A stretch of 12,597 nucleotides of DNA, taken from the IMG/VR virus record IMGVR_UViG_2663763227_000011; one strand, 5' to 3'. This DNA is from a virus (taxonomy: Duplodnaviria > Heunggongvirae > Uroviricota > Caudoviricetes). The notes below the pieces were generated by a model. It had not been told where the DNA came from, did no database searches, and saw only the letters and a program-made list of their open reading frames with translations. Positions 1,462 through 12,597 of this stretch are shown here, one piece after another (within the stretch, counting starts at the first letter, position 1; the number at the start of each line of letters is the position of its first letter). The position numbers and the translations under genes are program-made.

Positions 1462-1937
1462 ATATGTCCTTTTATCACTACATCAAGGCAAGCCATTGAT
1501 TTAATTAAATGATTTGCACTGCAAAAAGTGCTAAAAATCGCAAATTGACTACACCATTAACTACACCGATCGTTGCACTGTATGAAACAACGTGGAACAA
1601 ATAGACACAAGAAATATACAGGCGGGTCATCTTTCCAGGGGGAAGCGCGCTAATTCATGAGGGGCGTTAATGTTGATATGGGGATCCCCATAACGGGGCT
1701 ACCGGATTTTTTTTCCGGTTAACTGTTAATCAGGCTGGTGGGCTTTACCTGTTTTGTAGGAGTGGTCATTATGACCATTCAGACAATGACCTTAATCAGA
1801 ACTTTTCGCTAAAAAATGACGTTGGCCACGTCGTCCGGAAAGCACAAAATCCCGTCAATTTTTAATTAACGGTTAAACCGTCTTTTGTCACGGCGTGTCA
1901 CTGGTTGTAACTCTCCGTCACGGTATGTCGCTACTCG

Positions 1938-2219
1938 TTAACGCCGTAACCGCTCCGGCTTCTTCCAGTGGTACGTAATTTTCTCCGTTTCCCGATACAG
2001 TGCCACGCGGCGATTGTAGGCCAGCATTTCAAGAACGCGGATCCGTATGTTGCGCATATCCACATCATTAAGCTGGATACCATCACGGCGCATCACCTCA
2101 GCAACCACACGCGCGTAATTTTCGGCGGTCACGCTGTCCGGCTGCGTGGCCTGTTCGTCATGCTGCTGGCTGATTCCGGTAACGCGGCGGATTAATCCCA
2201 GTAGTTCGGCTTCTGTCAT
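1938..2219 (-). CDS. Hypothetical protein, 93 aa, last island gene before the phoQ-proximal end
   Basis: The ORF track gives 1938..2417 with a GTG start that reads through the cos site. The internal ATG at 2219..2217 (MTEAELLGLIRR...) has a GGGGG Shine-Dalgarno 5-6 nt upstream and avoids translating cos DNA. Protein-like composition; no family recognised. Confidence 0.45.
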   Translation of the reverse strand: MTEAELLGLIRRVTGISQQHDEQATQPDSVTAENYARVVAEVMRRDGIQLNDVDMRNIRIRVLEMLAYNRRVALYRETEKITYHWKKPERLRR

Positions 2220-2252
2220 TGTGCCCCCATCGCTCTGATAGTCTGGTGTCGT

Positions 2253-2431
2253 CGGGTCCTTCCTGGAATTATGGCCCGTTACGGGGCGGCGACCTCGCGC
2301 GTTTTCACTATTTATGAAAATTTTTCGGGATCCATGTCCGGTTTCTCTGCAAGTTAACCATATGAAAAATATAAAAACATGCTTTCCATGAACCGGACAT
2401 GCGCAAAAAACAGACACTAAAACCGGACATC
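2253..2431 (+). other. Lambda-type cos site, copy A: cosQ-like flank, cosN, lambda-like I2 stretch, then three island-specific AACCGGACAT repeats (candidate cosB R sites)
   Basis: 2278-2329 reads cgttACGGGGCGGCGACCTCGCGcGTTTTCaCTATTTATGAAAATTTTtCGG, near-identical to the lambda cos region as I recall it, with the 12-nt cohesive-end sequence GGGCGGCGACCT at 2284-2295. Downstream repeats: ATGTCCGGTT (inverted, 2334-2343), AACCGGACATG (2391-2401), AACCGGACATC (2421-2431). Confidence 0.65.
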
Positions 2432-2498
2432 GAACCAGTTAACCGAAAGTGTGCACAAATCACATGCATTGCTGCGAGTGATTAACAAGTTATCGGCT

Positions 2499-2933
2499 TT
2501 ACTGTTCTGTATCGGCTGATTGCTCCATGCTGGCACGGCGAACGCTTACGGCATGACGCCACCCAGCCAGAAAGCCAGCCATTTTATTTCGTGCCTTGCT
2601 CACATCTTCCGGTGAATAGCCGTAAATCTGCAAACCTTCATCAAATCGATGTTCTGTTTCTTCACTGGAGTACTCGTCACGCTCAGATGAAAGCAGCCTG
2701 GCAAACATAATTTTTTCCAGCGCACTGGTTTCTACGTGATATCTGATGGCCTCAAGACGGCTTTTACCTGAAGACCAAAGCAATGTATGCCCGATGTGAT
2801 AACCGCCAGACTTTCCGCGATCCGCATTAAGATACGGCATCCCCTGTTTGGTCCATGCGCGAATAGTGGTTCTGTTAACCTTGAAATGTTCAGCTATTTC
2901 CTGCTGACTTACAAAACAAGCTTTATCAATCAT
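2499..2933 (-). CDS. Terminase small subunit Nu1-like DNA-binding protein, 144 aa (Rpp-like redirecting-packaging protein candidate)
   Basis: N-terminus SQQEIAEHFKVNRTTIRAWTKQGMPYL aligns with the lambda gpNu1 winged-HTH N-terminus (KKQLADIFGASIRTIQNWQEQGMPVL, from memory). It is much shorter than Nu1 (181 aa) and no large terminase gene is adjacent. ATG at 2933, AAGGT Shine-Dalgarno 6 nt upstream, TAA stop at 2499-2501. Confidence 0.75.
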   Translation of the reverse strand: MIDKACFVSQQEIAEHFKVNRTTIRAWTKQGMPYLNADRGKSGGYHIGHTLLWSSGKSRLEAIRYHVETSALEKIMFARLLSSERDEYSSEETEHRFDEGLQIYGYSPEDVSKARNKMAGFLAGWRHAVSVRRASMEQSADTEQ

Positions 2934-3002
2934 AATGTTACCTTAACTGCATGGTTAAATATTAATCAAGTGGTGGTGGTGTCACCTTCACGGAAAAACG
3001 TC

Positions 3003-3066
3003 ATAAATAGCGAAAACCCGCGAGGTCGCCGCCCCGTAACGGGTCCATATGCCGGAAAGGACCCGT
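3003..3066 (-). other. Second cosQ/cosN copy (copy B), inverted relative to copy A, lacking the AACCGGACAT repeats
   Basis: Reverse complement of 3003-3066 is ~90% identical to 2253-2318, including GGGCGGCGACCT (3023-3034 on the - strand) and CGCGGGTTTTCGCTATTTATGA. The sequence then diverges into the leader of the Nu1-like gene (CGTTTTTCCGT...). Confidence 0.55.
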
Positions 3067-3089
3067 AAAAAAAGCCGGATTTCTCCGGC
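3067..3089 (-). terminator. Rho-independent terminator closing the capsid operon
   Basis: On the - strand: hairpin GCCGGA-GAAA-TCCGGC (3074-3089) followed by a 7-U run (3067-3073), 7 nt after the TGA stop of the 137-aa gene. Confidence 0.65.
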
Positions 3090-3095
3090 CTTATG

Positions 3096-3509
3096 TCAGA
3101 TGGTTTTCAGTATGCGATCGACGTCGCCTTCATCGCCCTGGTTTCTGCCGTCGTATGCCATGCCGGGTGATACGGCTTTCGGGCTGTGCATGTCCATAAA
3201 GTTTTCAAAGGCTGCGGTAAGCTCCGGCGCAACCTTTGGGCGCTCCTGCTCTATGGTCATGTTCAGGATTTCACGAGCATTATCGACGCTAATACATGGC
3301 ACGTTTGCCATTGCACGTAACAGCGGCTGATAGTCGTTATGTTCATGAAGCGCCATAATCGCATCAGCGCGCGGCTTGTCCTGCTCTTCCAGTTTGTTGA
3401 GTTGATATACGGCCTCGTAGGTTGATAAACCTCTGTCAGCCATTGCCCGCGCTTCGGCTTTAAATTTACTCGCCAGCGGTAGCGTCATGACGCTTTCATT
3501 CGTTGCCAT
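3096..3509 (-). CDS. Hypothetical protein, 137 aa, last gene of the capsid operon
   Basis: ATG at 3509 with AGGGGGA Shine-Dalgarno 4 nt upstream, immediately after the decoration-gene stop (translationally coupled). No recognisable family. Confidence 0.55.
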   Translation of the reverse strand: MATNESVMTLPLASKFKAEARAMADRGLSTYEAVYQLNKLEEQDKPRADAIMALHEHNDYQPLLRAMANVPCISVDNAREILNMTIEQERPKVAPELTAAFENFMDMHSPKAVSPGMAYDGRNQGDEGDVDRILKTI

Positions 3510-3521
3510 CGTTCCCCCTGC

Positions 3522-3857
3522 TTATCGGGCCAGCGGCTGAACGGATACGCCAGAACCCGCAAAGGCGGCGCATTTTTTCGCATCGGTGTCGACGCTCTCA
3601 GGCCAGTTAACGGCGGCAATATTGAAAATCCCCGTCTTGTAACACTGTGCTGATTTCTGCTTTGACGTGTCCACAGGGTACGAGGTCAGATAAACAGCCT
3701 TGCCAGATTCCTGACCATCCCACGGCTTAAACTCGCCATTGTCTGCCAGCATCAGCGGGGTAAATTCCTGAATAACGCCAGCATCAGCGGCAAAATGTAC
3801 CAGCGTCGTGGCGACCTGCTGACTGCCTGCAAATAACTCAATGTATGGAGTGTCCAT
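3522..3857 (-). CDS. Head decoration protein, lambda gpD-like, 111 aa
   Basis: TPLMLADNGEFKPWDG and YKTGIFNIAAVNWPESVDTDAKKCAAFAGS parallel remembered lambda gpD segments ([47 protein letters not shown]). GGGGGGA Shine-Dalgarno upstream of ATG 3857. Confidence 0.8.
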   Translation of the reverse strand: MDTPYIELFAGSQQVATTLVHFAADAGVIQEFTPLMLADNGEFKPWDGQESGKAVYLTSYPVDTSKQKSAQCYKTGIFNIAAVNWPESVDTDAKKCAAFAGSGVSVQPLAR

Positions 3858-3869
3858 AGAATCCCCCCG

Positions 3870-4925
3870 TTAACCAATTTTGACGGTAACAAATTTGCGA
3901 ATATCTGCCGGTACCGGCTGCGGTGCACTGTGTGTCTGCACGTACTCAATCGCCGGATCGCCGTCCTCAATCCAGTTTTTCGGGTAAAACATGTTTTGTG
4001 TTGCGCCCGTTCTTACCGCTTCCTGATCCATTATCGCACCATAGGCCACCAGCCCTTTATTGTTGGTGTTACCTAGGACCAGCAAATCAGGCTCAAGGAA
4101 ATATTTTTCGGTACCATCGCTGTCAGTGTATTTGCCGGAATAGACGATAAGGGCCAGATCACCAAGATAGCCTTTAAAGCTCACCACTTCGCCCAGGTTT
4201 TTACAGGCCAGTTCGGCGGCGGATTCTGAACCACGGGAAAGATCGTACAGCTCACGGAATTTTTTAAAGCTGCGTAACGTTCGCCATACCTCAGCGCCCA
4301 TAATCATGACGTTTGCGGGGCAACCAGCCTGATCGGCGTATAGTTCGATATCATAGATTGGATCGTGGGTTTCTTTGTCCTGCTCTGACCATTTTTTCCC
4401 GTCGGCCTGCTCTATGATGTTTTTTTCCGGTATCTTCCAGTCGATTTCATAGCGCTCTATGCCTTCGCCCTCAATGATGTTTTTTCCGGTCGTTACCGCA
4501 TTTACCGCCAGCCATTCCACGCGCGCTTTTATGGCGTTTATCTGGCGGCGCATATTGCCAGTAATCAGGCGCATACGGCGATAGGTAGGGTCGTTAAGCT
4601 GTGCCGGATCTTCTCCAGCCATGCGCATGATGGTTTTCGTTGGATCGATTTCGTGCTTTGGCTTCATGTAGCCAGGTTTAATCGTGCTGGTTTCGTACCC
4701 TTTATCGCGCTGAACCTGGCTACCCACCATAGGCGAACAAAACGCCGACATGGTGACTTCTTCAATGTCCAGGGTATCCAGCATGATGTTTTGCGTGCTG
4801 AATGTCGCCACGTTCGGGAAAAACAGCGTAGTAAACAGAGGGCTGAATTTAAAATCCGCAATATCCCCGCGATTCAGGTACATGAAAAGCTGGTTAGTGT
4901 TAAGTGCCGTTGCTTTGCCTGCCAT
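3870..4925 (-). CDS. Major capsid protein, lambda gpE family, 351 aa
   Basis: Several blocks match remembered lambda gpE: KFSPLFTTLFF, PGYMKPKHEIDP, DPTYRRMRLITGNMRR, FKGYLGDLALIVYSGKY...LVLGNTNNKGLVAYGAIMD, YPKNWIEDGDPAIEY. The ATG overlaps the stop of the upstream 68-aa ORF (TAATG). Confidence 0.85.
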   Translation of the reverse strand: MAGKATALNTNQLFMYLNRGDIADFKFSPLFTTLFFPNVATFSTQNIMLDTLDIEEVTMSAFCSPMVGSQVQRDKGYETSTIKPGYMKPKHEIDPTKTIMRMAGEDPAQLNDPTYRRMRLITGNMRRQINAIKARVEWLAVNAVTTGKNIIEGEGIERYEIDWKIPEKNIIEQADGKKWSEQDKETHDPIYDIELYADQAGCPANVMIMGAEVWRTLRSFKKFRELYDLSRGSESAAELACKNLGEVVSFKGYLGDLALIVYSGKYTDSDGTEKYFLEPDLLVLGNTNNKGLVAYGAIMDQEAVRTGATQNMFYPKNWIEDGDPAIEYVQTHSAPQPVPADIRKFVTVKIG

Positions 4926-5131
4926 TATTCACCCCCATAATTTTTATGCATCCCAAGCGCCGCAAGTAAATAAGAGCGTACAAGTGAACCTATCGACGGC
5001 TCCGGCGTCATCAGCGGATCCAGTCCAGCCGCCACGCCAGCCTCATAGTTTTTTTTGTGGCGCTGCTTGAGCACCTCCACGATTTCGGGGCTTATGTACA
5101 CCGAAACACCGCCTTTTTTCTCTTCAGCCAT
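4925..5131 (-). CDS. Hypothetical small protein, 68 aa, first gene of the capsid operon; N-terminus resembles a ribbon-helix-helix fold
   Basis: ATG at 5131 with GAGGAA Shine-Dalgarno. N-terminus KGGVSVYISPEIVEVLKQ has the beta-strand then helix pattern of RHH regulators (tentative). Stop overlaps the capsid start. Confidence 0.5.
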   Translation of the reverse strand: MAEEKKGGVSVYISPEIVEVLKQRHKKNYEAGVAAGLDPLMTPEPSIGSLVRSYLLAALGMHKNYGGE

Positions 5132-5166
5132 AGTAAGAAATTCCTCTTCGACTTAAAAAATCATAA

Positions 5167-5215
5167 CTGGATGTTCATCCAGCTCTGATTATAATCAGGA
5201 TTGCGTTTTGTGCAA
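5167..5215 (-). promoter_or_regulatory. Near-consensus sigma70 promoter for the capsid operon with two adjacent CTG...CAG palindromes
   Basis: On the - strand: -35 TTGCAC (5215-5210), 16-nt spacer, -10 TATAAT (5193-5188). The -10 lies inside the perfect 14-bp palindrome CTGATTATAATCAG (5185-5198); the perfect 16-bp palindrome CTGGATGttCATCCAG (5167-5182) covers roughly +1 to +16. Confidence 0.5.
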
Positions 5216-5296
5216 TGATATTGAGTTGTGTTGCAAATTATGAAATGATGATCCCGCTCATGTGTGTCAGTGCACCAAAAAGCCTCATATGCAAAA

Positions 5297-5333
5297 GCCC
5301 GATAAGCCACCTCTGACCTTATCGGGCTTTTTT
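5297..5333. terminator. Strong hairpin terminator between the replication and capsid operons, probably bidirectional
   Basis: Perfect 10-bp stem GCCCGATAAG / CTTATCGGGC with an 11-nt loop, followed by T6 on the + strand and preceded by A4 (U4 on the - strand). Confidence 0.5.
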
Positions 5334-5507
5334 ATCTGCCTGCAAAGATGTCGAACGAAAATTAACCACAACCATCATCTTTTTTGCATCAAAACAATTA
5401 AAAACAATAAATTACGCTCATGATGATGATGACGATAAAATCACAAAAATGCGCTTTTTTCCGCGCTTCCCGCCCCGTGTTCAGGCCCACCCCGCCAGGA
5501 GGACCCG

Positions 5508-5530
5508 TAAAAAAGCCGGATTGCTCCGGC
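5508..5530 (-). terminator. Rho-independent terminator after SSB
   Basis: On the - strand: hairpin GCCGGA-GCAA-TCCGGC (5515-5530) followed by a U-rich run (5508-5514), 17 nt after the SSB stop. Almost identical in sequence to the terminator at 3067-3089. Confidence 0.65.
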
Positions 5531-5546
5531 TTCTGTCTCTCGTCGC

Positions 5547-5969
5547 TTAAAACGGTATGTTATCCCCGTACGGATCATCATTCCCCGCCTGTTGTTTTGC
5601 CCTGTTCAGCGCGTCAGTAGCCTGGCCCTGTTGACCTTTTTTGCCGCCCAGTCGCGCCGTTCGCGCACTGATTACACTGTCTGCGATAACCTGCCAGCCC
5701 TGCCGCGTTTCTCCGTTCTGCCCAGTCCACTGGCTGATCTGCATGTTACCCGCCACGCTCAGGAGTTCACCCTTGCGGTGCCTTTCCAGTGCTTCGGCCT
5801 GTCTGCCAAATGCCAGGACGGATAACCACATCGTCGCCGTTCCGTCATCTGCCTGGCTGCACGGAAGGGGGACCGCCATACGCGCCAGCGTCATCGGTGT
5901 GCCCTTGCTGGTCTGTTTTACCTGCGGGTCGTCCACCAGCCGCCCGTAAGCTGCTATCTGTGCTGTCAT
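5547..5969 (-). CDS. ssb: Single-stranded DNA-binding protein (SSB), 140 aa
   Basis: OB-fold SSB pattern (GRLVDDP...WLSVLAFGRQAE...KGELLSVAG...WTGQNGETRQ) followed by a Gly/Gln-rich linker and a C-terminal acidic ...DDPYGDNIPF tail resembling the E. coli SSB DDDIPF tip. GGAGAGG Shine-Dalgarno; ATG overlaps the upstream TGA (ATGA). Confidence 0.85.
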   Translation of the reverse strand: MTAQIAAYGRLVDDPQVKQTSKGTPMTLARMAVPLPCSQADDGTATMWLSVLAFGRQAEALERHRKGELLSVAGNMQISQWTGQNGETRQGWQVIADSVISARTARLGGKKGQQGQATDALNRAKQQAGNDDPYGDNIPF

Positions 5970-6244
5970 GATTCCACCTCTCCGGTTTTAACGTTGATGG
6001 TTGTTACCTGTTCCGCTTCGGCAATCTCCCGCTCTGTCAGCGTGGCAAAATTTGCCGCCGTCGTGGTCATGAATGCGCTTATCAGTTCGGGATGTGCTTT
6101 CGCGTATCCTTCCCCCGCGTGGCGGTCTATCGTTCTGATTGCCACCTTTAAAGCGTGCTCTGTCATGTCTAACGCGCGATATTTCGGTTCTGTTCTGTCT
6201 CTGCGTTTTTTGAGTGATTTATTAAATTTCCCTGAAGTGTGCAT
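5966..6244 (-). CDS. Hypothetical protein, 92 aa, between the origin and ssb
   Basis: ATG at 6244 with GAGGGGG about 11 nt upstream; translationally coupled to ssb. No family recognised. Confidence 0.5.
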   Translation of the reverse strand: MHTSGKFNKSLKKRRDRTEPKYRALDMTEHALKVAIRTIDRHAGEGYAKAHPELISAFMTTTAANFATLTEREIAEAEQVTTINVKTGEVES

Positions 6245-6292
6245 ATTTATTTTTACCCCCTCGTTTAAAAAGTTTTGAGTTGTGCCTCCCCT

Positions 6293-6519
6293 TGTCTACC
6301 TTATCTACCTTAGTGGCCCTCATGCCAGTAATGGCGCGGCTTTCAGCGGGGTAGAGTGCTTTTATCCACTATCTACCCCGTGTCTACCTCCCTGTCTGAT
6401 TCAGGTAAAATCAGGTAGAGAGGGTAGATAGTGGGTAGACAGTAAAAAAAGGCTATCTACCTAACTTAATGCACTGAATTAAATGTATTTTTCTTTACTC
6501 AGGTAGACAGGGTAGACAG
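6293..6519. repeat. Iteron-type replication origin: about 11 copies of GGTAGA(C/G)AG / CTnTCTACC in both orientations flanking an AT-rich segment
   Basis: TCTACC at 6295, 6304, 6372, 6383, 6456; GGTAGA at 6350, 6414, 6423, 6434, 6502, 6511; AT-rich stretch 6462-6500. Lies directly 3' of the primase/helicase gene, as in PICI and plasmid origins. Confidence 0.7.
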
Positions 6520-6532
6520 CAATTACAAAAAA

Positions 6533-8287
6533 TTATAAAAACGCGTCGCACTCGTCTGTTGTTATTGCGTTAGTCTGCGTTACCCCCTTAACTTTCCGCG
6601 TAATATATTCATGTCCGTAAACTTTTGCGGCAGGCTTCATAGCCTTTCCAAAGTCATTTACGTTTAGCGGTTTGCTCCTGCCTGCGTATGCCATAAACGC
6701 CAGATAGACGCGGTAAAGGCTGTTCCTGGTCGTGTACTTCACTGAATCGCCACCGCCCCCCATCATCAGGCCGCGCGCTTCCTCCAGAAAATTCAGGAAC
6801 TGGCAAAACTCAATAACCGGATCCGTCTGTTGCTTTATTGCCAGTGCTTCATCACCGTCACGCTGTTCCAGTAGTAAAGCCCGTGCCTTCTCAGGGTCGG
6901 TAAAGTTCGCCAGCAATCGGCGGATAATGACAGGGATTTCAGCCGCGATCTTTTCCGGTAGCTCCCTGTCTTTTTCGGCCTCACTGACGATATTGTCGAA
7001 ACGGAAAATCACGCGACGACGTGCCACACCTCCGGCCCGTTCGGTGAATATCATCGGGTTATTGTTGGTCGCCAGCACCACCGCCCTGATTACAGCCGTG
7101 AAACGCTTTTCGTATTTCGGGTTAATTTCCACGGGGTCACCGCCCGTGATTTTCTTGATGCCCGTTCCTTCGCCTGTATATTTCGGCTGGTCAGCCAGGA
7201 CGATAAGACGACTCCCGACAACCTGCGCACGTCCACCAGCATCATCAAGCGATGTCATTTCAGCGCTTACCGTGTTCTGTTTCCCTGCCAGAAGGCTGGC
7301 TATGTGCGTGAATGTACTTTTACCGCTCCCGCCGTCTCCGGTGGCCTCAATAAACATCTGCCAGTCGTACCGGTTCGCCATAATCATGTACAGCGCGGCA
7401 CATATACGCATCATCTTGCGCGGGTCTTTTCCGGCTGCGTGCTCAAGCCATTTATGAAAGTTTGGCGCGTTATCGCGGATGTTCTCCCCTGGTGCTGGTG
7501 GCGTGTACTCAATGCCGTTGTGCGTGGTGATCCAGTTCTCCGGCGTGTGCGGGGAAAATCCCCCCGTTTTCAGGTCAAGCGCACCATTGGCGAACGGCAG
7601 CAAATCGCCGGACGGCTCGCCCATTGGTTCGGCAATAACTTTTAACGCTTCCACGGCGTTATTGATTACGCGCTTGCTGAAAGTGGCCCTGTGCTCTGAA
7701 TAGATCGCCACCATTTCGCGGCTAAGTTCCATTGTGCTGACCGGACACCATACCCCGCCGCGCCATACGTGAACGATTTCACTTTCAGGATGTACGCAAA
7801 CGCCATCAAAGCGATCGGCAAGCAGCTGCGCGCGCTCACTGTCCGCCATCTGCGAAAGTTGCGCCTTTTGCTTTACCGGAAGCTCAATGACCAGACCATC
7901 AGAAAGATTCTGGCGCTCACGGGCCAGATATTCGCGCCAGTTCTCCACCTTCTGACCGTGCATACCATCAGGGTAAAAATTTGCATCCTGTACGCCTGCC
8001 GCCGCCAGCTTCTGGCCAATCGCCTTTATCATTACTGGCGCAAGATATCCGGCCCTGAATATGCGCACGGATTTTCTGCCTTCCGGCACAATTTGCAGCT
8101 TATCCAGTTCTGATAACTGCTGCTCCCCAAGCCACACAGGAGGCTCATTATCTCCGGCCATACGCGCATCATGTTCCTGCCATTGTTTCGCGTGTGCCCA
8201 GGCATCACTACCCGCAAAAATAATGACTTCTGTTCCTTTGTGTTTTATGCCGCGTGACTGCTGTTTTACGTTCGGTGCCAGTTTCAT
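6533..8287 (-). CDS. Primase / replication initiator with SF3-type P-loop NTPase domain (P4-family primase-helicase; Pri-Rep-like), 584 aa
   Basis: Walker A motif GDGGSGKST and Walker B-like RLIVLAD in the C-terminal half, a long N-terminal primase-like region, adjacent iteron origin. ATG overlaps the upstream stop (ATGA). Confidence 0.9.
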   Translation of the reverse strand: MKLAPNVKQQSRGIKHKGTEVIIFAGSDAWAHAKQWQEHDARMAGDNEPPVWLGEQQLSELDKLQIVPEGRKSVRIFRAGYLAPVMIKAIGQKLAAAGVQDANFYPDGMHGQKVENWREYLARERQNLSDGLVIELPVKQKAQLSQMADSERAQLLADRFDGVCVHPESEIVHVWRGGVWCPVSTMELSREMVAIYSEHRATFSKRVINNAVEALKVIAEPMGEPSGDLLPFANGALDLKTGGFSPHTPENWITTHNGIEYTPPAPGENIRDNAPNFHKWLEHAAGKDPRKMMRICAALYMIMANRYDWQMFIEATGDGGSGKSTFTHIASLLAGKQNTVSAEMTSLDDAGGRAQVVGSRLIVLADQPKYTGEGTGIKKITGGDPVEINPKYEKRFTAVIRAVVLATNNNPMIFTERAGGVARRRVIFRFDNIVSEAEKDRELPEKIAAEIPVIIRRLLANFTDPEKARALLLEQRDGDEALAIKQQTDPVIEFCQFLNFLEEARGLMMGGGGDSVKYTTRNSLYRVYLAFMAYAGRSKPLNVNDFGKAMKPAAKVYGHEYITRKVKGVTQTNAITTDECDAFL

Positions 8288-9258: not shown

Positions 9259-9478
9259 GTACCCCTCCGCATTTTTTTTCGTTAGAAATAAGCGTTCTTC
9301 TTTCCTGTTCATCGCTCAGGAATACGCAGACCTCACCGCTAAGGCGTTTAAGTAAGCCGATGATTGCCCCTGATTCGCTGTCGGTCATCATGCTAGGGTA
9401 ATCCTCTGCCAGTGCGCAAATAACTTCGATTTGGTGGGCGCGTTCTGCTGCCTGTTGTAGTGTGATTTCCTGGCTCAT
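9248..9478 (-). CDS. Hypothetical protein, 76 aa
   Basis: ATG at 9478 overlaps the TGA of the upstream 66-aa ORF (ATGA); its 3' end contains the Shine-Dalgarno and start of the next gene. Confidence 0.5.
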   Translation of the reverse strand: MSQEITLQQAAERAHQIEVICALAEDYPSMMTDSESGAIIGLLKRLSGEVCVFLSDEQERRTLISNEKKCGGVHVQ

Positions 9479-9675
9479 AAGCCTACCCCCTGACGAATAC
9501 GGGCAGCAAATACCATCACGCAGCCAGCCGGAGATTGCTGGCGTGCTTCCTGTTCGCTGGTGGCCTCAATGGTAATCACGCGCGGTTGTGCCGTGCTCAG
9601 GGCGATAAAACGCCAGATGTATTTATTCAGGTTGTGCGAGTCCCGCCCTTTCGGGTGTGTGGTATGATTTCTCAT
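9475..9675 (-). CDS. Hypothetical small protein, 66 aa, first gene of the replication operon; tentatively Icd-like
   Basis: ATG at 9675 with GAGGT Shine-Dalgarno 4 nt upstream. This is the in-frame tail of the 428-aa ORF in the track, here treated as an independent gene. The YIWRFIAL motif reminds me of proteins annotated as host cell division inhibitor Icd-like in P4-like prophages (memory only). Confidence 0.5.
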   Translation of the reverse strand: MRNHTTHPKGRDSHNLNKYIWRFIALSTAQPRVITIEATSEQEARQQSPAGCVMVFAARIRQGVGL

Positions 9676-9771
9676 AGCTACCTCGATACTGTTGCTATCG
9701 TTGGTGGTTAGAAGCCCCGTTACTGCTCCTACAGTGCGGGGTTTCGTCGTTTCTGTGCCTTTCATCAATAA

Positions 9772-9854
9772 GGTGTAAGACACAATGTAAAACAATGGTG
9801 TCTTACACGTCAACCCTTCAAAATATTTTTTTTTCGTGTATATTGTCTTACACC
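9772..9854. promoter_or_regulatory. Divergent back-to-back promoters with three copies of an 11-bp operator half-site GTGTAAGACAC
   Basis: Perfect inverted repeat GTGTAAGACAC (9773-9783) / GTGTCTTACAC (9798-9808) with a 14-bp spacer, plus a third half-site TGTCTTACACC (9844-9854). Leftward promoter: -35 TTGACG (rc of 9809-9814) and -10 TACATT, with the inverted repeat spanning its core. Rightward promoter: -35 TTCAAA (9817-9822), 16-nt spacer, -10 TATATT (9839-9844), overlapped by the third half-site. Confidence 0.55.
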
Positions 9855-9874
9855 AAAAACATGAGGGGTTAAAC

Positions 9875-10054
9875 ATGGCAACGGGTCCAAAGAATGCAAA
9901 ATCACAATCTGTAACTGCACGTATTGCCCATGAAATTATTGAAGGCATGGAGAACGTGAAAGAAGAAGGCGAAAGCACGGGACAGTTTATAAACGCAGCC
10001 ATGCGCGGCGAAATCAAACGCCGCCAGCGCCGCAAGGCCAAAGAGCAGGAGTAA
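9875..10054 (+). CDS. Small ribbon-helix-helix-like DNA-binding protein, 59 aa (candidate repressor of the divergent promoters)
   Basis: ATG 9875 with GAGGGG Shine-Dalgarno 6 nt upstream. SVTARIAHEIIEGMENVKEEGESTGQFINAAMRGEIKRRQ fits an RHH beta-strand plus two helices; good E. coli codon usage. Opposite in orientation to every other island gene. The ORF track's 9836 GTG start is rejected. Confidence 0.6.
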   Translation: MATGPKNAKSQSVTARIAHEIIEGMENVKEEGESTGQFINAAMRGEIKRRQRRKAKEQE

Positions 10055-10111
10055 CCATCACCAGCGCCGTGGTGTGAGTAACTACGGCGCATTGCTATGC
10101 AGGACAACACA

Positions 10112-10285
10112 ATGACCGATAAAGAATTGACCAAAACATTATCACCGGCACGGAAAAGACGGCGCAGAAAGATAGAGCATGAATCAGAAAGATTCGCGCC
10201 ATGTGCTTTTGCCCTTGAGCAATTCCTTAAAGAGTACAGGGAAAAGCGCTCATTGCAGGTATGGCAACGAACTGAACCAGACTGA
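10112..10285 (+). CDS. Small, highly basic protein, 57 aa, co-transcribed with the RHH gene
   Basis: ATG 10112 with AGGA 7 nt upstream (the ORF track starts at 10097). Contains RKRRRRK; rare codons suggest horizontal origin; followed by + strand terminators. No family recognised. Confidence 0.45.
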   Translation: MTDKELTKTLSPARKRRRRKIEHESERFAPCAFALEQFLKEYREKRSLQVWQRTEPD

Positions 10286-10364
10286 TTGCATTGCCCACCA
10301 GCCGCAAATGTGGCATTGTTGGCAATGCTCATGCGTTGGGGATAACGTGTAGCTTGTGTCGAGG

Positions 10365-10393
10365 GGCCACCGTAGCGGGTGGCCTTTGTTTTG
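10365..10393 (+). terminator. Rho-independent terminator of the + strand cassette
   Basis: GGCCACC-gtagcg-GGTGGCC hairpin followed by TTTGTTTTG. A second + strand hairpin with a GCAA loop and T-run at 10488-10520 may act as a backup. Confidence 0.55.
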
Positions 10394-10761
10394 CCCGTTA
10401 TTCGGCAATTGTGGCGCTTCTCCACATGGTTGATATAATCCCACTGCTCAGATTCATTTTTTGCGCAGTAGGTTAATTGTTCACAAAGGCGCTCCGGCAA
10501 CGGGGCGCTTTTTGTTTTTATTAGTTTGTAGAAACCTGACTCAGAGATAATGCTCATATTCTGATTGCCGTCAGGGGTGTAAGTTAAATTTACTCCCTTT
10601 TTATCATCAAACATCTGCAACGCTCTGGCGTTAACAATATTGGTTTCACTCCCGCCAGTAAGGCCGGAAATAACCGGAATAATTTCGGCAAAATTTTGCA
10701 GATTCTGTTTTTCAGGACGAACGAAGCCCCGCCCTTGTTCGGGAGAATATCCAGTATTCAT
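10380..10761 (-). pseudogene. KilA-N/Bro-N-like (antirepressor-like) N-terminal coding region with no in-frame stop; probably a truncated or disrupted gene
   Basis: The first ~125 aa are protein-like and contain TYTPDGNQNMSIISESGFYKLI, resembling the Bro-N/KilA-N core (P22 Ant-like SVINESGLYSLI, from memory). Beyond about 10380 the same frame continues for ~230 codons of Cys/Ser/Arg/Trp-rich junk, antisense to the + strand genes, until it joins the 66-aa ORF. The lower coordinate is approximate. Confidence 0.4.
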
Positions 10762-10813
10762 GGTTAGATCTCTGTATTAGTGGATGGGTGGCGGCTGTGT
10801 GCCGCCAGCCTGA

Positions 10814-11002
10814 TTAGTGAACTGCCTCGCAGCTGTCCTTCCATGCCAGAACTTCGGATAAAGACCAGCCAACGGAACGACCGCCCAGCTTACGCCGTGA
10901 TGGGAATTGTCCGGCTTTTTCCAGGCGGTACCGACATGAGCGGCTCAGGCCTGTAAGTTGCTGACATTCTTTTTCACGTATAAAGCGATCTGTGCTTAAC
11001 AC
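10814..11002 (-). CDS. alpA: AlpA-family phage regulatory protein (Xis-like winged-helix activator), 62 aa
   Basis: LTGLSRSCRYRLEKAGQFPSRRKLGGRSVGWSLSEVLAW matches the AlpA/Vis family signature (TG-SR-T-Y...FP...LG-RSVGW...EV--W). GTG start at 11002 with GGGGGA Shine-Dalgarno; TAA stop at 10814-10816. Confidence 0.85.
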   Translation of the reverse strand: MLSTDRFIREKECQQLTGLSRSCRYRLEKAGQFPSRRKLGGRSVGWSLSEVLAWKDSCEAVH

Positions 11003-11280
11003 AATTCCCCCTTTGTTGTTTCTTAAAGAGTCATTGGGTGGATTATTGGGTTGGGTTGTGTCGGATTGTGTCAGGGTGTTTGTGGAATGGCAAACACTGG
11101 CTGCGGTCGTTTTACAGAAGCAGGGGGAATGAGAATAAAAACTCTTTTAATTCATTATGATGCAAAGGCATAAAATTTTACTTTTACGCCTTTTTTACAT
11201 ATTTTTAAGAGTGATTCGCCAGTGTATAAAAAAACAGTACACCTATAAAAATCAAATGGTTATTACGATGGCTGATTTTT

Positions 11281-11367: not shown

Positions 11368-12597
11368 TTATATTTCTCTGGCTATTGGCAATGTGGTTAC
11401 GTTTTCATGTGTTCCCGCCAGTATCCCTAACCGCTCCGTCCACATATCCAGCGCGTCACGTTTCGCATCCAGATAACGGGAATGGTTATAGACTCGTTGC
11501 ATCCCTGGCATCTGATGACCTGTAAGCTGCTCCACGACGTGAGGATCCACGCCTAAATCGTTCAGCATCGTTGTAAAGGTGCGCCGGATGTCATGCAGTG
11601 ACCAGTGAGGGTGTTTTAGCCTCCTGTGCGCTAATCTGCCGTACTGCGACACGCTTGTTTCCTGTTTCACTTCCCCCAGCAATAAGCCCGTGTGCCTGTT
11701 CTGCTCCACCAGCTGCGTGACGAACGGCAGTATTGCTTCCGGTATGGGCCGGAATATTGCCACCTTCGTTTTGCTGTGTTCTTTCGGCACGGTCCAGAGC
11801 ATTTCGGTAAAATCCCACTCGCTGATCTCCGATAACCTCAGTTCTACCGTCCGGCATCCGAAAACAATCAGGAGGCGGATTAGTGCGACGTAGTAAGGGG
11901 AAAATATTTTTTTGTCCAGTGCCTGCAATAATTCGCCAAGTTCTTTGGTGCTTAAGACACGCTCGCTTATATCCGGTTTTTTCCCAACGTCCGCCACACT
12001 CATATCATCAAGAACGTTGCTGATTGCATAGCGCCGCCTCCGGCAGAACTTAAGCGCCTGTTTGCACGTCTGTAGCAAGAATCCGGCAGTAACAGGCGTT
12101 CGCTTTGCCACCTGGTCAAAACAGGCCAGCCAGTGCCGTAGCTCGCATTTATCCAGCGGCATAGCACCAATGTGCTGTATTACGTGATTATTAAGGCGCT
12201 TTTTCAGGGCGGCATAATCCACGCGGTTTTCCTTTACGTAAGACTCAAGCCAGTAGGTAAGCGCATCGCCAACCGTTACGGGCTTTAACGCTTTCTGTAC
12301 GGTGTAATTCATCTCATGACGTGGATTTTTCCCCTCAGCAAGCCAAGCGCGACACTGTGCCGCTTTTTCCCTGGCAGCTTTCAGACTCAGATCAGGATAA
12401 TTTCCCAGCTTAATCCGTTCCGGTCGTGCTCCCCTTCCCGTTCCGGCCCTGTAGGTGAAATACCAGGTTAAAAGGCCGCTGGTTGAATGCCTGACGCTCA
12501 GGTTTCCACCGTCATTAAGAAAGGCTGTTTTTTGGGCGGGTGTGCCGTTGATTTTCCTTAGCTGTGTATCACTCAGTTTGTTAAGTGCTCTGCGCAT
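11368..12597 (-). CDS. int: Tyrosine-type site-specific integrase, P4/CP4-57 family, 409 aa
   Basis: N-terminus LSDTQLRKINGTP...GGNLSVRHSTSGLLTWYFTYR matches the P4-type integrase arm-binding domain. The C-terminal catalytic region has RTVELRLSEISEWDF, HDIRRTF and the HxxxRxxY-type tail (GHQMPGMQRVYNHSRY). The start codon sits exactly at the window edge, so the true start and the adjacent att site cannot be verified. Confidence 0.9.
   Translation of the reverse strand: MRRALNKLSDTQLRKINGTPAQKTAFLNDGGNLSVRHSTSGLLTWYFTYRAGTGRGARPERIKLGNYPDLSLKAAREKAAQCRAWLAEGKNPRHEMNYTVQKALKPVTVGDALTYWLESYVKENRVDYAALKKRLNNHVIQHIGAMPLDKCELRHWLACFDQVAKRTPVTAGFLLQTCKQALKFCRRRRYAISNVLDDMSVADVGKKPDISERVLSTKELGELLQALDKKIFSPYYVALIRLLIVFGCRTVELRLSEISEWDFTEMLWTVPKEHSKTKVAIFRPIPEAILPFVTQLVEQNRHTGLLLGEVKQETSVSQYGRLAHRRLKHPHWSLHDIRRTFTTMLNDLGVDPHVVEQLTGHQMPGMQRVYNHSRYLDAKRDALDMWTERLGILAGTHENVTTLPIAREI

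What the first reader, a model, noticed from the sequence alone, without database searches (positions are those of the whole stretch)
9675..10520. Opposite-strand two-gene cassette (RHH-like protein plus basic 57-aa protein) with a palindromic operator switch, embedded between alpA and the replication operon
This is the only + strand transcription unit in the island. It has its own promoter, Shine-Dalgarno sites and two terminators. The 11-bp half-site GTGTAAGACAC occurs three times: a perfect inverted pair sits inside the core of the leftward promoter that drives the replication operon, and a third copy overlaps the -10 and start of the RHH gene's own promoter. That is the layout of a compact repressor/operator switch, which would give this island a dedicated repressor in addition to AlpA. 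Alternatively the pair could be a small toxin-antitoxin or defence-type cassette, since RHH proteins are typical antitoxins and the partner is a short, strongly basic protein of unknown family.
Basis: partly seen in the sequence, partly recalled or inferred. Interest (0 to 1): 0.74.

Follow-up and report, generated by a model that had tools for sequence, protein, structure and literature searches.

The report
Hidden repressor switch in phage satellite
A small DNA-binding protein gene with three matching binding sites sits on the promoter of the replication genes of an E. coli phage satellite (a CFT073-type PICI) and is probably the repressor that this class of satellites was thought to lack.

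Summary
The window is an EcCICFT073-type Gram-negative PICI. ORF1 (9875-10054, +) is a YlcI/YnfO-family protein with a confidently modelled ribbon-helix-helix (RHH) fold.

Three GTG-N5-CAC sites (9773, 9798, 9843) cover the core and start of the leftward promoter and the -10 of ORF1's own promoter. This layout recurs in 43 distinct loci from at least 15 enterobacterial genera. The 5-bp site core co-varies with beta-strand residues 12 and 14, giving about 15 specificity classes. That is strong comparative evidence for a repressor/operator switch.

The toxin-antitoxin or defence alternative is not supported. ORF2 (57 aa) is confined to E. coli/Shigella, has no family or fold, and is dispensable for the layout.

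That ORF runs from just after alpA into the Icd-like gene, which belongs to the same family as P4 Kil. This matches the vis-eta/kil scaffold of satellite P4, with a protein repressor where P4 has the CI RNA.

A conserved plus-strand RNA structure opposite the icd/kil leader suggests an additional antisense sRNA.

Verdict: new variant of a known kind; all function is inferred, none measured.

The parts
9875..10054 (+). ORF1: 59-aa YlcI/YnfO-family ribbon-helix-helix protein, the predicted repressor. SD GAGGGG at 9863-9868.
9773..9783 (.). Operator O1 (GTG-TAAGA-CAC), immediately downstream of the -10 of the leftward promoter, over the expected start site.
   Evidence: Sits at a fixed position (-100 to -113 from the ORF1 ATG) in 43 loci.
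9798..9808 (.). Operator O2 (GTG-TCTTA-CAC), filling the spacer of the leftward promoter and abutting its -35.
   Evidence: At -77 (-76 to -78) in the 43 loci; core identity is 0.98 among pairs with the same beta-strand residues.
9843..9853 (.). Operator O3 (tTG-TCTTA-CAC, 10/11), overlapping the -10 and start of ORF1's own promoter.
   Evidence: At -32 in most of the 43 loci (the TVA-class loci have no match there and carry an extra site at about -61); core identity is 0.93 within a class.
9784..9813 (-). P_L: predicted leftward promoter (-35 TTGACG, 18 nt, -10 TACATT) for the icd/kil-to-primase operon. It is the positional counterpart of P4 P_LE.
   Evidence: The -35 TTGA(C/A)G is conserved next to O2 in nearly all of the 43 loci. 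Not tested experimentally.
9817..9844 (+). P_R: predicted promoter of ORF1 (-35 TTCAAA, 16 nt, -10 TATATT; a T-tract lies upstream).
   Evidence: A -10 of the form TAnnnT (mostly TATACT or TATATT) is conserved at the same place in all loci.
10112..10285 (+). ORF2: 57-aa basic protein, probably real but accessory, function unknown.
   Evidence: phrog_21027 only. 36 clusters, all E. coli/Shigella. Conserved core ERFAPCAFALExFLKEY. AF2 pLDDT 72, one helix. Coding tests lean weakly to the + frame.
10362..10393 (+). T1: plus-strand intrinsic-terminator-like hairpin with a U tail, closing the ORF1-ORF2 unit.
   Evidence: -18.5 kcal/mol on +, no U tail on -. Weak Rfam match to a terminator hairpin. 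A similar GCCTTTGTTTTAT motif occurs in other genera.
10485..10520 (+). T2: second plus-strand terminator-like hairpin, inside the Bro-N remnant.
   Evidence: z -5.3. Homologous to the terminator just beyond the 3' end of full-length antirepressor genes in L009 and L018.
9475..10761 (-). Eta-like long ORF (428 codons from ATG 10761). It is antisense to ORF2, ORF1 and the operator region, and in frame with the Icd-like gene.
   Evidence: Stops in this frame against the other two minus frames: 28 vs 229 and 200 in the 190 nt upstream of ORF1, and 0 vs 146 and 102 inside ORF1. P4 eta has the same layout.
9475..9675 (-). Icd-like gene (66 aa), in the same NCBIfam family as P4 Kil. It is nested at the 3' end of the Eta-like ORF and is the first gene of the replication operon.
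   Evidence: NF033153: 1.4e-19 for the window protein and 1.6e-21 for P4 Kil.
9675..9766 (+). Candidate cis-antisense sRNA opposite the icd/kil SD and leader. It comprises two conserved hairpins (9675-9710 and 9711-9745), a U-rich tail, and an upstream -10-like TGgTATGAT at 9660-9668.
   Evidence: 97.8% of cells paired; 14 of 22 pairs have compensatory changes; about 87 G.U cells on the + strand. Folding energy is -35.9 kcal/mol (+) against -23.1 (-). A transcript has not been shown.
10814..11002 (-). alpA (P4 vis homolog), upstream of the Eta-like ORF.
   Evidence: Pfam PF05930 3e-18.

Best explanation
ORF1 encodes a small ribbon-helix-helix DNA-binding protein of the YlcI/YnfO family. Its N-terminal beta-strand, with residues 12 and 14 as specificity determinants, recognises three 11-bp GTG-N5-CAC sites.

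O2 lies in the spacer, and O1 over the start site, of the leftward promoter P_L. P_L drives icd/kil, the small ORFs, the DUF4222 gene and the primase gene. Occupancy of these sites should block initiation and keep the island's Kil-like and replication functions silent. O3 overlaps the -10 and start of ORF1's own promoter and should give negative autoregulation.

The module sits where satellite P4 keeps its immunity determinant. It lies inside, and antisense to, an Eta-like ORF that begins next to alpA (the vis homolog) and ends as the nested Icd/Kil-like gene. By analogy with P4, helper-induced transcription from the alpA promoter would be translated along this stop-free frame. That would protect it from premature termination, carry it across the repressed internal promoter into the replication operon, and collide with ORF1 transcription.

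Shown: gene family, fold, site layout, co-variation, the open frame, and the homology to Kil. Inferred: binding, repression, autoregulation and the read-through bypass.
For: Family: NF041551 at 64.8 bits.

Sites: 3 matches against 0.12 expected, with no further credible site in the window.

Conservation: the operators sit at about -100 to -113, -77 and -32 from the ATG in 43 distinct loci of at least 15 genera.

Co-variation: about 15 classes. SVT/SLT pairs with TCTTA, ALK/SLK with TGGCC, QLN with AATCG (in E. coli, Citrobacter and Pectobacterium), MTT with AAATA (many genera), and KxQ with GAyTC. Same-class pairs show core identity 0.98 and 0.93, against spacer 0.78 and UTR 0.67. Different-class pairs on similar backgrounds show core identity 0.32 and 0.33, against UTR 0.67. 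No permutation of 2000 reached the observed value.

The + frame is the selected frame in ORF1: substitution rates pos2 0.22 < pos1 0.32 < pos3 0.55.

Eta-like frame. An ATG with a strong SD sits at the stop codon of alpA or of the antirepressor gene in most loci.

P4 parallel: the eta frame opens at the vis stop, and Kil belongs to the Icd-like family. The P4 mechanism is summarised in PMC10111431.

No C4 or isrK RNA is present here.

Literature: AlpA activates the island, and a repressor in Gram-negative PICIs is called 'unclear' (PMC6092414).
Against: There is no experimental evidence of binding, repression, transcripts or translation.

The promoter calls are consensus matches that are not above chance on their own.

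The operators lie about 30-110 bp from the beta-strand codons, so part of the co-variation could reflect co-inheritance of one recombination block. The contrast with equally linked spacers argues against this being the whole story.

AlpA over-expression alone induces replication (PMC6092414). ORF1 is therefore not an absolute block and might act as a homeostat rather than as the maintenance repressor.

In the window the Eta-like start is 53 nt after the alpA stop and has only a weak SD. It is not directly coupled as in many related loci.

Four Pectobacterium loci keep ORF1 and its operators but have stops in the Eta-like frame.
Confidence: 0.7

Rival explanations
1. ORF1 binds the same operators but acts as a late shut-off or copy-number homeostat, like Arc of P22 or CopG of pMV158, rather than as the repressor that keeps the integrated island silent. 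It would limit Kil toxicity and runaway replication after induction, possibly together with the candidate antisense RNA.
Against: ORF1 has its own autoregulated promoter facing away from the operon it controls. It would therefore be expressed while the operon is off, which suits a maintenance repressor. Nothing here distinguishes the timing.
Confidence: 0.2
2. ORF1/ORF2 is a type II toxin-antitoxin or small defence cassette, with ORF1 as RHH antitoxin and ORF2 as toxin.
Against: ORF1 is only an RHH domain plus a short basic tail, with no toxin-binding domain. ORF2 has no Pfam, NCBIfam or PADLOC hit and no globular fold. ORF2 is confined to E. coli/Shigella and absent from 31 loci in other genera that keep ORF1 and its operators. 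Two of the three operators lie in the divergent promoter.
Confidence: 0.03
3. The plus-strand ORFs are not the functional products. The real gene is the long minus-strand Eta-like/Bro-network ORF, and the repeats serve another factor such as AlpA, or serve RNA structure.
For: The minus frame is stop-free and has its own SD and ATG. PGAP reports Bro-N pseudogene fragments opposite ORF2 in some genomes.
Against: Substitution rates by codon position and BLOSUM conservation favour the + frame for ORF1 (0.55 vs 0.41). The family also exists outside this context: ylcI of DLP12 lies next to cos. The fold model is confident. The site cores track ORF1 residues, not AlpA, which is identical in loci with different cores. 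Both strands can be functional at once.
Confidence: 0.05

Closest known systems
Satellite phage P4 immunity region (vis - eta/kil, promoters P_LL and P_LE, CI RNA)
   Same: An alpA/vis homolog is followed by a long ORF that starts at or near its stop codon. That ORF contains an internal promoter and ends as a nested Icd-like/Kil gene ahead of the primase operon. The Icd-like protein and P4 Kil both match NF033153.
   Different: P4 immunity is an RNA (CI, Rfam C4/isrK) acting by premature termination. No such RNA is detectable here even at E <= 5. Instead a protein RHH repressor gene lies on the opposite strand inside the Eta-like ORF, with operators on the internal promoter.
P22 immI region (Arc and Mnt RHH repressors, sar antisense RNA); from my own knowledge
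   Same: Small RHH repressors whose operators overlap divergent promoters, negative autoregulation, and an antisense RNA against the ribosome-binding site of the controlled gene.
   Different: There is no detectable sequence homology. The controlled genes are icd/kil and replication genes rather than ant. The antisense RNA here is only predicted.
[not shown]
   Same: An RHH fold repressing a replication-gene promoter through short repeated sites, together with a counter-transcript.
   Different: copG is co-transcribed with rep, whereas ORF1 is divergent. Sequence identity is 12-19% only.
Stl/Rpr master repressors of Gram-positive PICIs (SaPIs)
   Same: A divergently transcribed regulator facing the replication operon, and the proposed role of keeping the island quiescent (PMC6092414).
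   Different: Stl proteins are larger helix-turn-helix proteins (my own knowledge) that are relieved by binding a helper-phage protein (PMC6092414). Here the fold is RHH, and relief is proposed to come from AlpA-driven read-through.
YlcI (DLP12) and YnfO (Qin) of E. coli K-12
   Same: Same NCBIfam family. YlcI has the same beta-alpha-alpha sequence pattern.
   Different: ylcI lies next to cos, divergent from nohD, without GTG-N5-CAC sites upstream and without an extended antisense open frame. Its function is uncharacterised.

Membership tests
YlcI/YnfO family (NCBIfam NF041551; DUF3950) | Score above the curated cut-off of the family HMM | tested here: met
   64.8 bits against a cut-off of 30, E 5e-18, residues 9-50 covering the whole 42-position model. 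Pfam-A gave no hit at E <= 1.
Ribbon-helix-helix (Arc/MetJ/CopG) superfamily | Beta-alpha-alpha topology of about 45 residues | tested here: met
   [not shown]
Ribbon-helix-helix (Arc/MetJ/CopG) superfamily | G-x-S/T/N turn before helix 2, and alternating polar/hydrophobic residues in the strand | tested here: met
   G32-E33-S34 is present, with E33 and S34 invariant. Positions 13, 15 and 17 are hydrophobic or small. Positions 12 and 14 are polar and variable. K9, S10 and R16 are conserved.
Ribbon-helix-helix (Arc/MetJ/CopG) superfamily | Dimer whose paired strands read repeated DNA sites | tested here: inconclusive
Site recognition is supported only by co-variation of residues 12 and 14 with the site core.
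Type II toxin-antitoxin system | A toxin partner of a recognisable family or fold, obligatorily linked to the antitoxin | tested here: not met
   ORF2 has no Pfam, NCBIfam or PADLOC hit. It models as one helix plus a disordered tail. It is absent from all 31 non-E. coli loci.
Type II toxin-antitoxin system | An antitoxin with a toxin-neutralising domain besides the DNA-binding domain | tested here: not met
   ORF1 is 59 aa: an RHH domain plus the basic tail RRQRRKAKEQE.
P4-type vis-eta/kil immunity scaffold | An alpA/vis homolog followed by a long ORF that ends as a nested Kil (Icd-like) gene in the same frame | tested here: met
   In the window: alpA 10814-11002, ORF 10761-9475, Icd-like 9675-9475. 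In P4: the eta frame opens at the vis stop, and Kil matches NF033153 at 1.6e-21. The frame is conserved in most of the 43 loci.
P4-type vis-eta/kil immunity scaffold | CI/C4-type immunity RNA and its seqA target within the ORF | tested here: not met
   No C4 or isrK match at gathering score in the window, nor at E <= 5 in 9300-11200.
P4-type vis-eta/kil immunity scaffold | Translation of eta from the upstream promoter prevents termination | not testable with these tools
   Inferred from stop-codon depletion and SD/ATG placement only.
Known anti-phage defence systems (PADLOC) | A match to any defence-protein model | tested here: not met
   Only a 12-bit, E 0.028 match for ORF1, and nothing for ORF2.

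The most novel reading that the evidence does not exclude
Gram-negative PICIs do have a master immunity module. It would have three layers packed into about 1.1 kb:
- an RHH repressor gene written antisense inside a translated Eta-like ORF;
- operators that have diversified into at least 15 specificity classes, implying immunity or incompatibility groups among co-resident satellites;
- a cis-antisense sRNA against the icd/kil leader.

Helper induction would bypass all three layers by AlpA-driven, translation-protected read-through.
Probability: 0.4. Interest if true: 0.8.

Novelty: new variant of a known kind. Interest (0 to 1): 0.68.

Why it matters
The founding paper on Gram-negative PICIs states that a global repressor is 'unclear' and that AlpA is an activator (PMC6092414). 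I found no later paper in the searchable library that links these islands to an RHH repressor.

A sequence matching at least part of this cassette is present in about a third of complete E. coli genomes, 1842 of 5426. The ORF1-operator module occurs across Enterobacterales.

If ORF1 is the repressor, several things follow:
- How these satellites stay silent becomes directly testable.
- How AlpA-driven induction overrides that silence becomes directly testable.
- The allelic operator classes predict immunity groups among satellites.
- The antisense nesting within an Eta-like ORF would show the P4 scaffold re-used with a protein effector in place of an RNA.
- The module could offer orthogonal repressor/operator pairs for engineering PICI-based delivery vehicles.

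Tried and rejected
**Searches that found nothing useful**
- Pfam gave nothing for ORF1 or ORF2.
- A PDB sequence profile search gave only chance hits, E >= 0.3.
- tblastn of ORF1 against 50,697 phage records found nothing. The Icd-like protein found one record.
- Rfam at gathering score, and at E <= 5, found only terminator-like hairpins.
- PADLOC found nothing meaningful.
- Literature searches for YlcI/YnfO/DUF3950, and for PICI plus ribbon-helix-helix, found nothing relevant.

**ORF2: still unresolved**
- A codon-periodicity test to decide which strand codes in the ORF2 region cannot discriminate. The + frame and the Eta-like - frame share their wobble position.
- The pos1-versus-pos2 contrast and BLOSUM scores lean only slightly to the + frame.
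- The ORF2 structure model was too simple for a fold search, so none was run.

**Ideas considered and dropped**
- The long minus-strand ORF as a chance by-product of ORF1's composition. ylcI also has a locally open antisense frame. I rejected this because the depletion of stops extends through about 190 nt of promoter DNA in most loci.
- GTGTTAAGCAC at the alpA start codon (10992-11002) as a fourth operator. GTG-N5-CAC occurs at chance frequency in the window, and its core differs from the operator core.
Full report
**Context**

The window runs from phoQ (1-1461) to a tyrosine integrase (11368-12597, -). Region 9400-11100 is 99.8% identical to E. coli ST131 strain CU568-3 and 93.7% identical to CFT073 at the phoQ/roxA site. 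That makes it an EcCICFT073-type Gram-negative phage-inducible chromosomal island, or PICI.

The genes around the finding are alpA (10814-11002, -; Pfam Phage_AlpA 3e-18) and an Icd-like gene (9475-9675, -; NF033153 1.4e-19). Several small ORFs, a DUF4222 gene and a primase gene (6533-8287, -) follow.

**The observation**

GTGTAAGACAC is present exactly at 9773 (+) and 9798 (-), and with one mismatch at 9843 (-). That is 3 matches against 0.12 expected. No other credible copy exists in the window.

- O2 fills the 18-nt spacer of a leftward promoter-like site (TTGACG ... TACATT).
- O1 follows that site's -10.
- O3 overlaps the end of the rightward -10, TATATT.
- ORF1 (9875-10054), ORF2 (10112-10285), their Shine-Dalgarno sequences and two plus-strand terminator-shaped hairpins are as described.

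Each 'half-site' is better described as a complete small site, GTG-N5-CAC.

**What ORF1 is**

ORF1 matches the YlcI/YnfO family model at 64.8 bits against a cut-off of 30. PGAP annotates it that way in CFT073 and many other genomes.

The alignment shows a G-E-S turn before helix 2. It also shows a strand with conserved K9, S10 and R16, hydrophobic positions 13, 15 and 17, and variable polar positions 12 and 14.

Substitution rates by codon position (pos2 0.22 < pos1 0.32 < pos3 0.55 over 42 sequences) show that the plus frame is the one under protein-level selection.

**Comparative evidence for the switch**

I collected 13 E. coli loci and 31 loci from other genera. These include Serratia, Yersinia, Pectobacterium, Citrobacter, Enterobacter, Raoultella, Kluyvera, Limnobaculum, Samsonia and Dryocola.

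In all 43 distinct sequences, ORF1 is divergent from an Icd-like gene about 190-200 bp away. The three sites lie at essentially fixed positions: about -100 to -113, -77 and -32 from the ATG. The GTG and CAC flanks, the -35 TTGA(C/A)G abutting O2, and a -10 of the form TAnnnT (mostly TATACT or TATATT) overlapping O3 are nearly constant.

The 5-bp core changes in concert at all three sites, and it tracks residues 12 and 14 of the protein:

| Strand residues 12-14 | Site core | Where seen |
|---|---|---|
| SVT / SLT | TCTTA | window, Superficieibacter |
| ALK / SLK | TGGCC | CFT073, Dryocola |
| TVA | TTGAA | E. coli |
| QLN | AATCG | E. coli, Citrobacter, Pectobacterium |
| MTT | AAATA | many genera |
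| KxQ | GAyTC | several genera |
| RFD | TCGGA | two loci |

There are about 15 classes in all.

The numbers support this:
- Pairs with the same strand triplet have core identity 0.98 (O2) and 0.93 (O3). The adjacent spacer scores 0.78 and the 5' UTR 0.67.
- In the 21 such pairs on divergent backgrounds, the cores stay at 0.94 and 0.93 while the UTR falls to 0.43.
- Pairs of different class on similar backgrounds have cores at 0.32 and 0.33, near random, with UTR identity 0.67.
- No permutation of 2000 reached the observed association.

Linkage alone cannot produce this contrast. I therefore regard sequence-specific recognition of these sites by ORF1 as well supported, though still not measured.

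**ORF2 and the toxin-antitoxin alternative**

ORF2 matches only an uncharacterised PHROG family. Its 36 homologue clusters are all from E. coli or Shigella. None of the 31 loci from other genera has a counterpart.

Its conserved core is ERFAPCAFALExFLKEY, and an FALExFL motif survives in two very divergent variants. The model is a disordered basic N-terminus plus one helix, pLDDT 72.

Tests of which strand is coding are weak. The plus frame and the opposing frame share wobble positions, and both indices lean only slightly to the plus strand. There is no defence or toxin family match. ORF1 has no domain beyond the RHH.

I therefore treat ORF2 as a probable but accessory small protein of unknown function, and I reject the toxin-antitoxin reading.

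The minus-strand frame that contains the Icd-like gene has no stop codon from 10776 down to 9475. From ATG 10761 that is 428 codons, running antisense through ORF2, ORF1 and the whole operator region.

The same frame is open in nearly all loci. Summed over 43 loci, the stop counts are:

| Region | This frame | Other two minus frames |
|---|---|---|
| 190 nt upstream of ORF1 | 28 | 229 and 200 |
| Inside ORF1 | 0 | 146 and 102 |

The exceptions are four Pectobacterium loci. There, plus-strand cargo genes (an RES-like gene and a kinase) follow ORF1 instead of a convergent alpA.

This is the architecture of satellite P4. [quoted passage not shown] It contains the constitutive internal promoter and the CI immunity RNA, and it ends as the nested kil gene. 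Its translation from the upstream promoter prevents termination.

I confirmed this on the P4 sequence. The frame opens at the vis stop, with ATGs at 8767-8761 behind GGGGG. The 65-aa Kil matches the same Icd-like family model (1.6e-21) as the window's protein.

The window has no C4 or isrK-type RNA, even at E <= 5. So the scaffold is P4-like, but the immunity effector appears to be the RHH protein, encoded on the opposite strand.

**Proposed mechanism**

Shown: the family, fold, site layout, co-variation, open frame and Kil homology.

Inferred:
- ORF1 dimers occupy O2 and O1 and prevent initiation at P_L. This keeps the Kil-like division inhibitor and the replication genes off.
- O3 gives negative autoregulation.
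- On helper induction, AlpA-dependent transcription (PMC6092414) enters the Eta-like ORF. Ribosomes following the polymerase protect the transcript from premature termination. The transcript crosses the repressed promoter into icd and the primase operon, and it opposes ORF1 expression by convergent transcription.
- T1 and T2 are shaped as terminators only on the plus strand, which fits one-way traffic.

**A further element**

The 9675-9745 stretch forms two hairpins that are conserved in 27 aligned loci. On the plus strand, 97.8% of cells are paired and 14 of 22 pairs show compensatory changes. No shuffle of 500 matched this, and the slid controls gave 35-50%.

About 87 cells are G.U pairs on the plus strand and would be A.C mismatches on the minus strand. 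Plus-strand RNA also folds far better:

| Locus | Plus strand (kcal/mol) | Minus strand (kcal/mol) |
|---|---|---|
| window | -35.9 | -23.1 |
| L014 | -36.6 | -23.9 |
| L024 | -41.1 | -25.8 |

A -10-like element, TGgTATGAT at 9660-9668 (TAGACT or TATGCT in other genera), sits at a fixed distance upstream. A U-rich tail follows hairpin B.

This suggests a cis-antisense RNA of about 75-90 nt covering the icd/kil Shine-Dalgarno sequence and leader. It is reminiscent of sar in P22 immI or RNA II of pMV158 (my own knowledge). No transcript has been shown, so I rate this a hypothesis.

**Comparison and novelty**

The switch works like Arc/Mnt or CopG-type RHH repression, placed on a P4-type vis-eta/kil scaffold. 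It plays the role that Stl plays in Gram-positive PICIs.

It is a member of the YlcI/YnfO family and of the RHH superfamily. It is not a toxin-antitoxin system and not a P4-type RNA immunity system.

The founding paper on Gram-negative PICIs says a global repressor is 'unclear' (PMC6092414). A later survey describes this zone as Bro-network genes plus immunity RNAs and does not mention this gene (PMC10111431). My searches found nothing linking PICIs to an RHH repressor.

I classify it as a new variant of a known kind. It is of clear interest to satellite biology, with every functional step still to be tested.

Noticed in passing
window 9475-10776 (-): A stop-free minus-strand frame of 428 codons links the region just after alpA to the Icd-like gene. 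It runs antisense through ORF2, ORF1 and the promoter/operator region. It is conserved in most of 43 loci and matches the P4 eta/kil nested-gene layout.
   Followed up: yes
window 9660-9766 (+): Two covarying hairpins fold on the plus strand only (many G.U pairs). They are preceded by a conserved -10-like TGgTATGAT and followed by a U-rich tail. This is a candidate cis-antisense sRNA against the icd/kil SD and leader.
   Followed up: partly
window 10432-10520 (+): A perfect extended -10 (TGaTATAAT, 10432-10440) lies about 45 nt upstream of terminator T2. Both are kept in an 84%-identical relative (L008), with a compensated hairpin. It could be a second small plus-strand RNA antisense to the Bro-N remnant, or a relic.
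   Followed up: partly
window 10390-10761 (-): The N-terminal part of the Eta-like ORF is a weak Bro-N/antirepressor remnant (Pfam 17 bits, below cut-off). It aligns to the first ~50 residues of a full-length AntA/AntB antirepressor, and to DNA just beyond that gene's end, in L009 and L018. It therefore looks like an internal deletion derivative.
   Followed up: partly
L010 1697-2941 (E. coli O111:H8): This locus has an expanded plus-strand cassette. It holds a 101-aa YlcI/YnfO variant, a 75-aa ORF2-like gene, an extra 57-aa Arc-like RHH protein (YQMRLPEEFRAQLEEAAK...) and another ORF2 relative. The minus-strand frame stays open for 1.8 kb.
   Followed up: no
L031, L040-L042 (Pectobacterium), about +300 to +1100 after ORF1: Plus-strand cargo genes follow ORF1 here: an RES-domain-like protein, a Ser/Thr kinase-like protein and others. 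Only in these loci is the Eta-like frame interrupted. The slot downstream of ORF1 may be an accessory or defence hotspot.
   Followed up: no
L045 4752-5334 (E. coli K-12 DLP12): ylcI, which gives the family its name, lies next to the prophage cos site and is divergent from nohD. It has no GTG-N5-CAC sites upstream, so the family is also used in a different context in lambdoid prophages.
   Followed up: partly
window 10992-11002: GTGTTAAGCAC, which fits the GTG-N5-CAC pattern, overlaps the GTG start codon of alpA. The core differs from the operator core and the pattern occurs at chance frequency, so this is probably coincidence.
   Followed up: partly
window 1900-6300 (-): The island carries lambda-E-like major capsid (3870-4925) and decoration-like (3522-3857) ORFs, and an SSB (5547-5969). 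These calls rest on reading the translations only.
   Followed up: no
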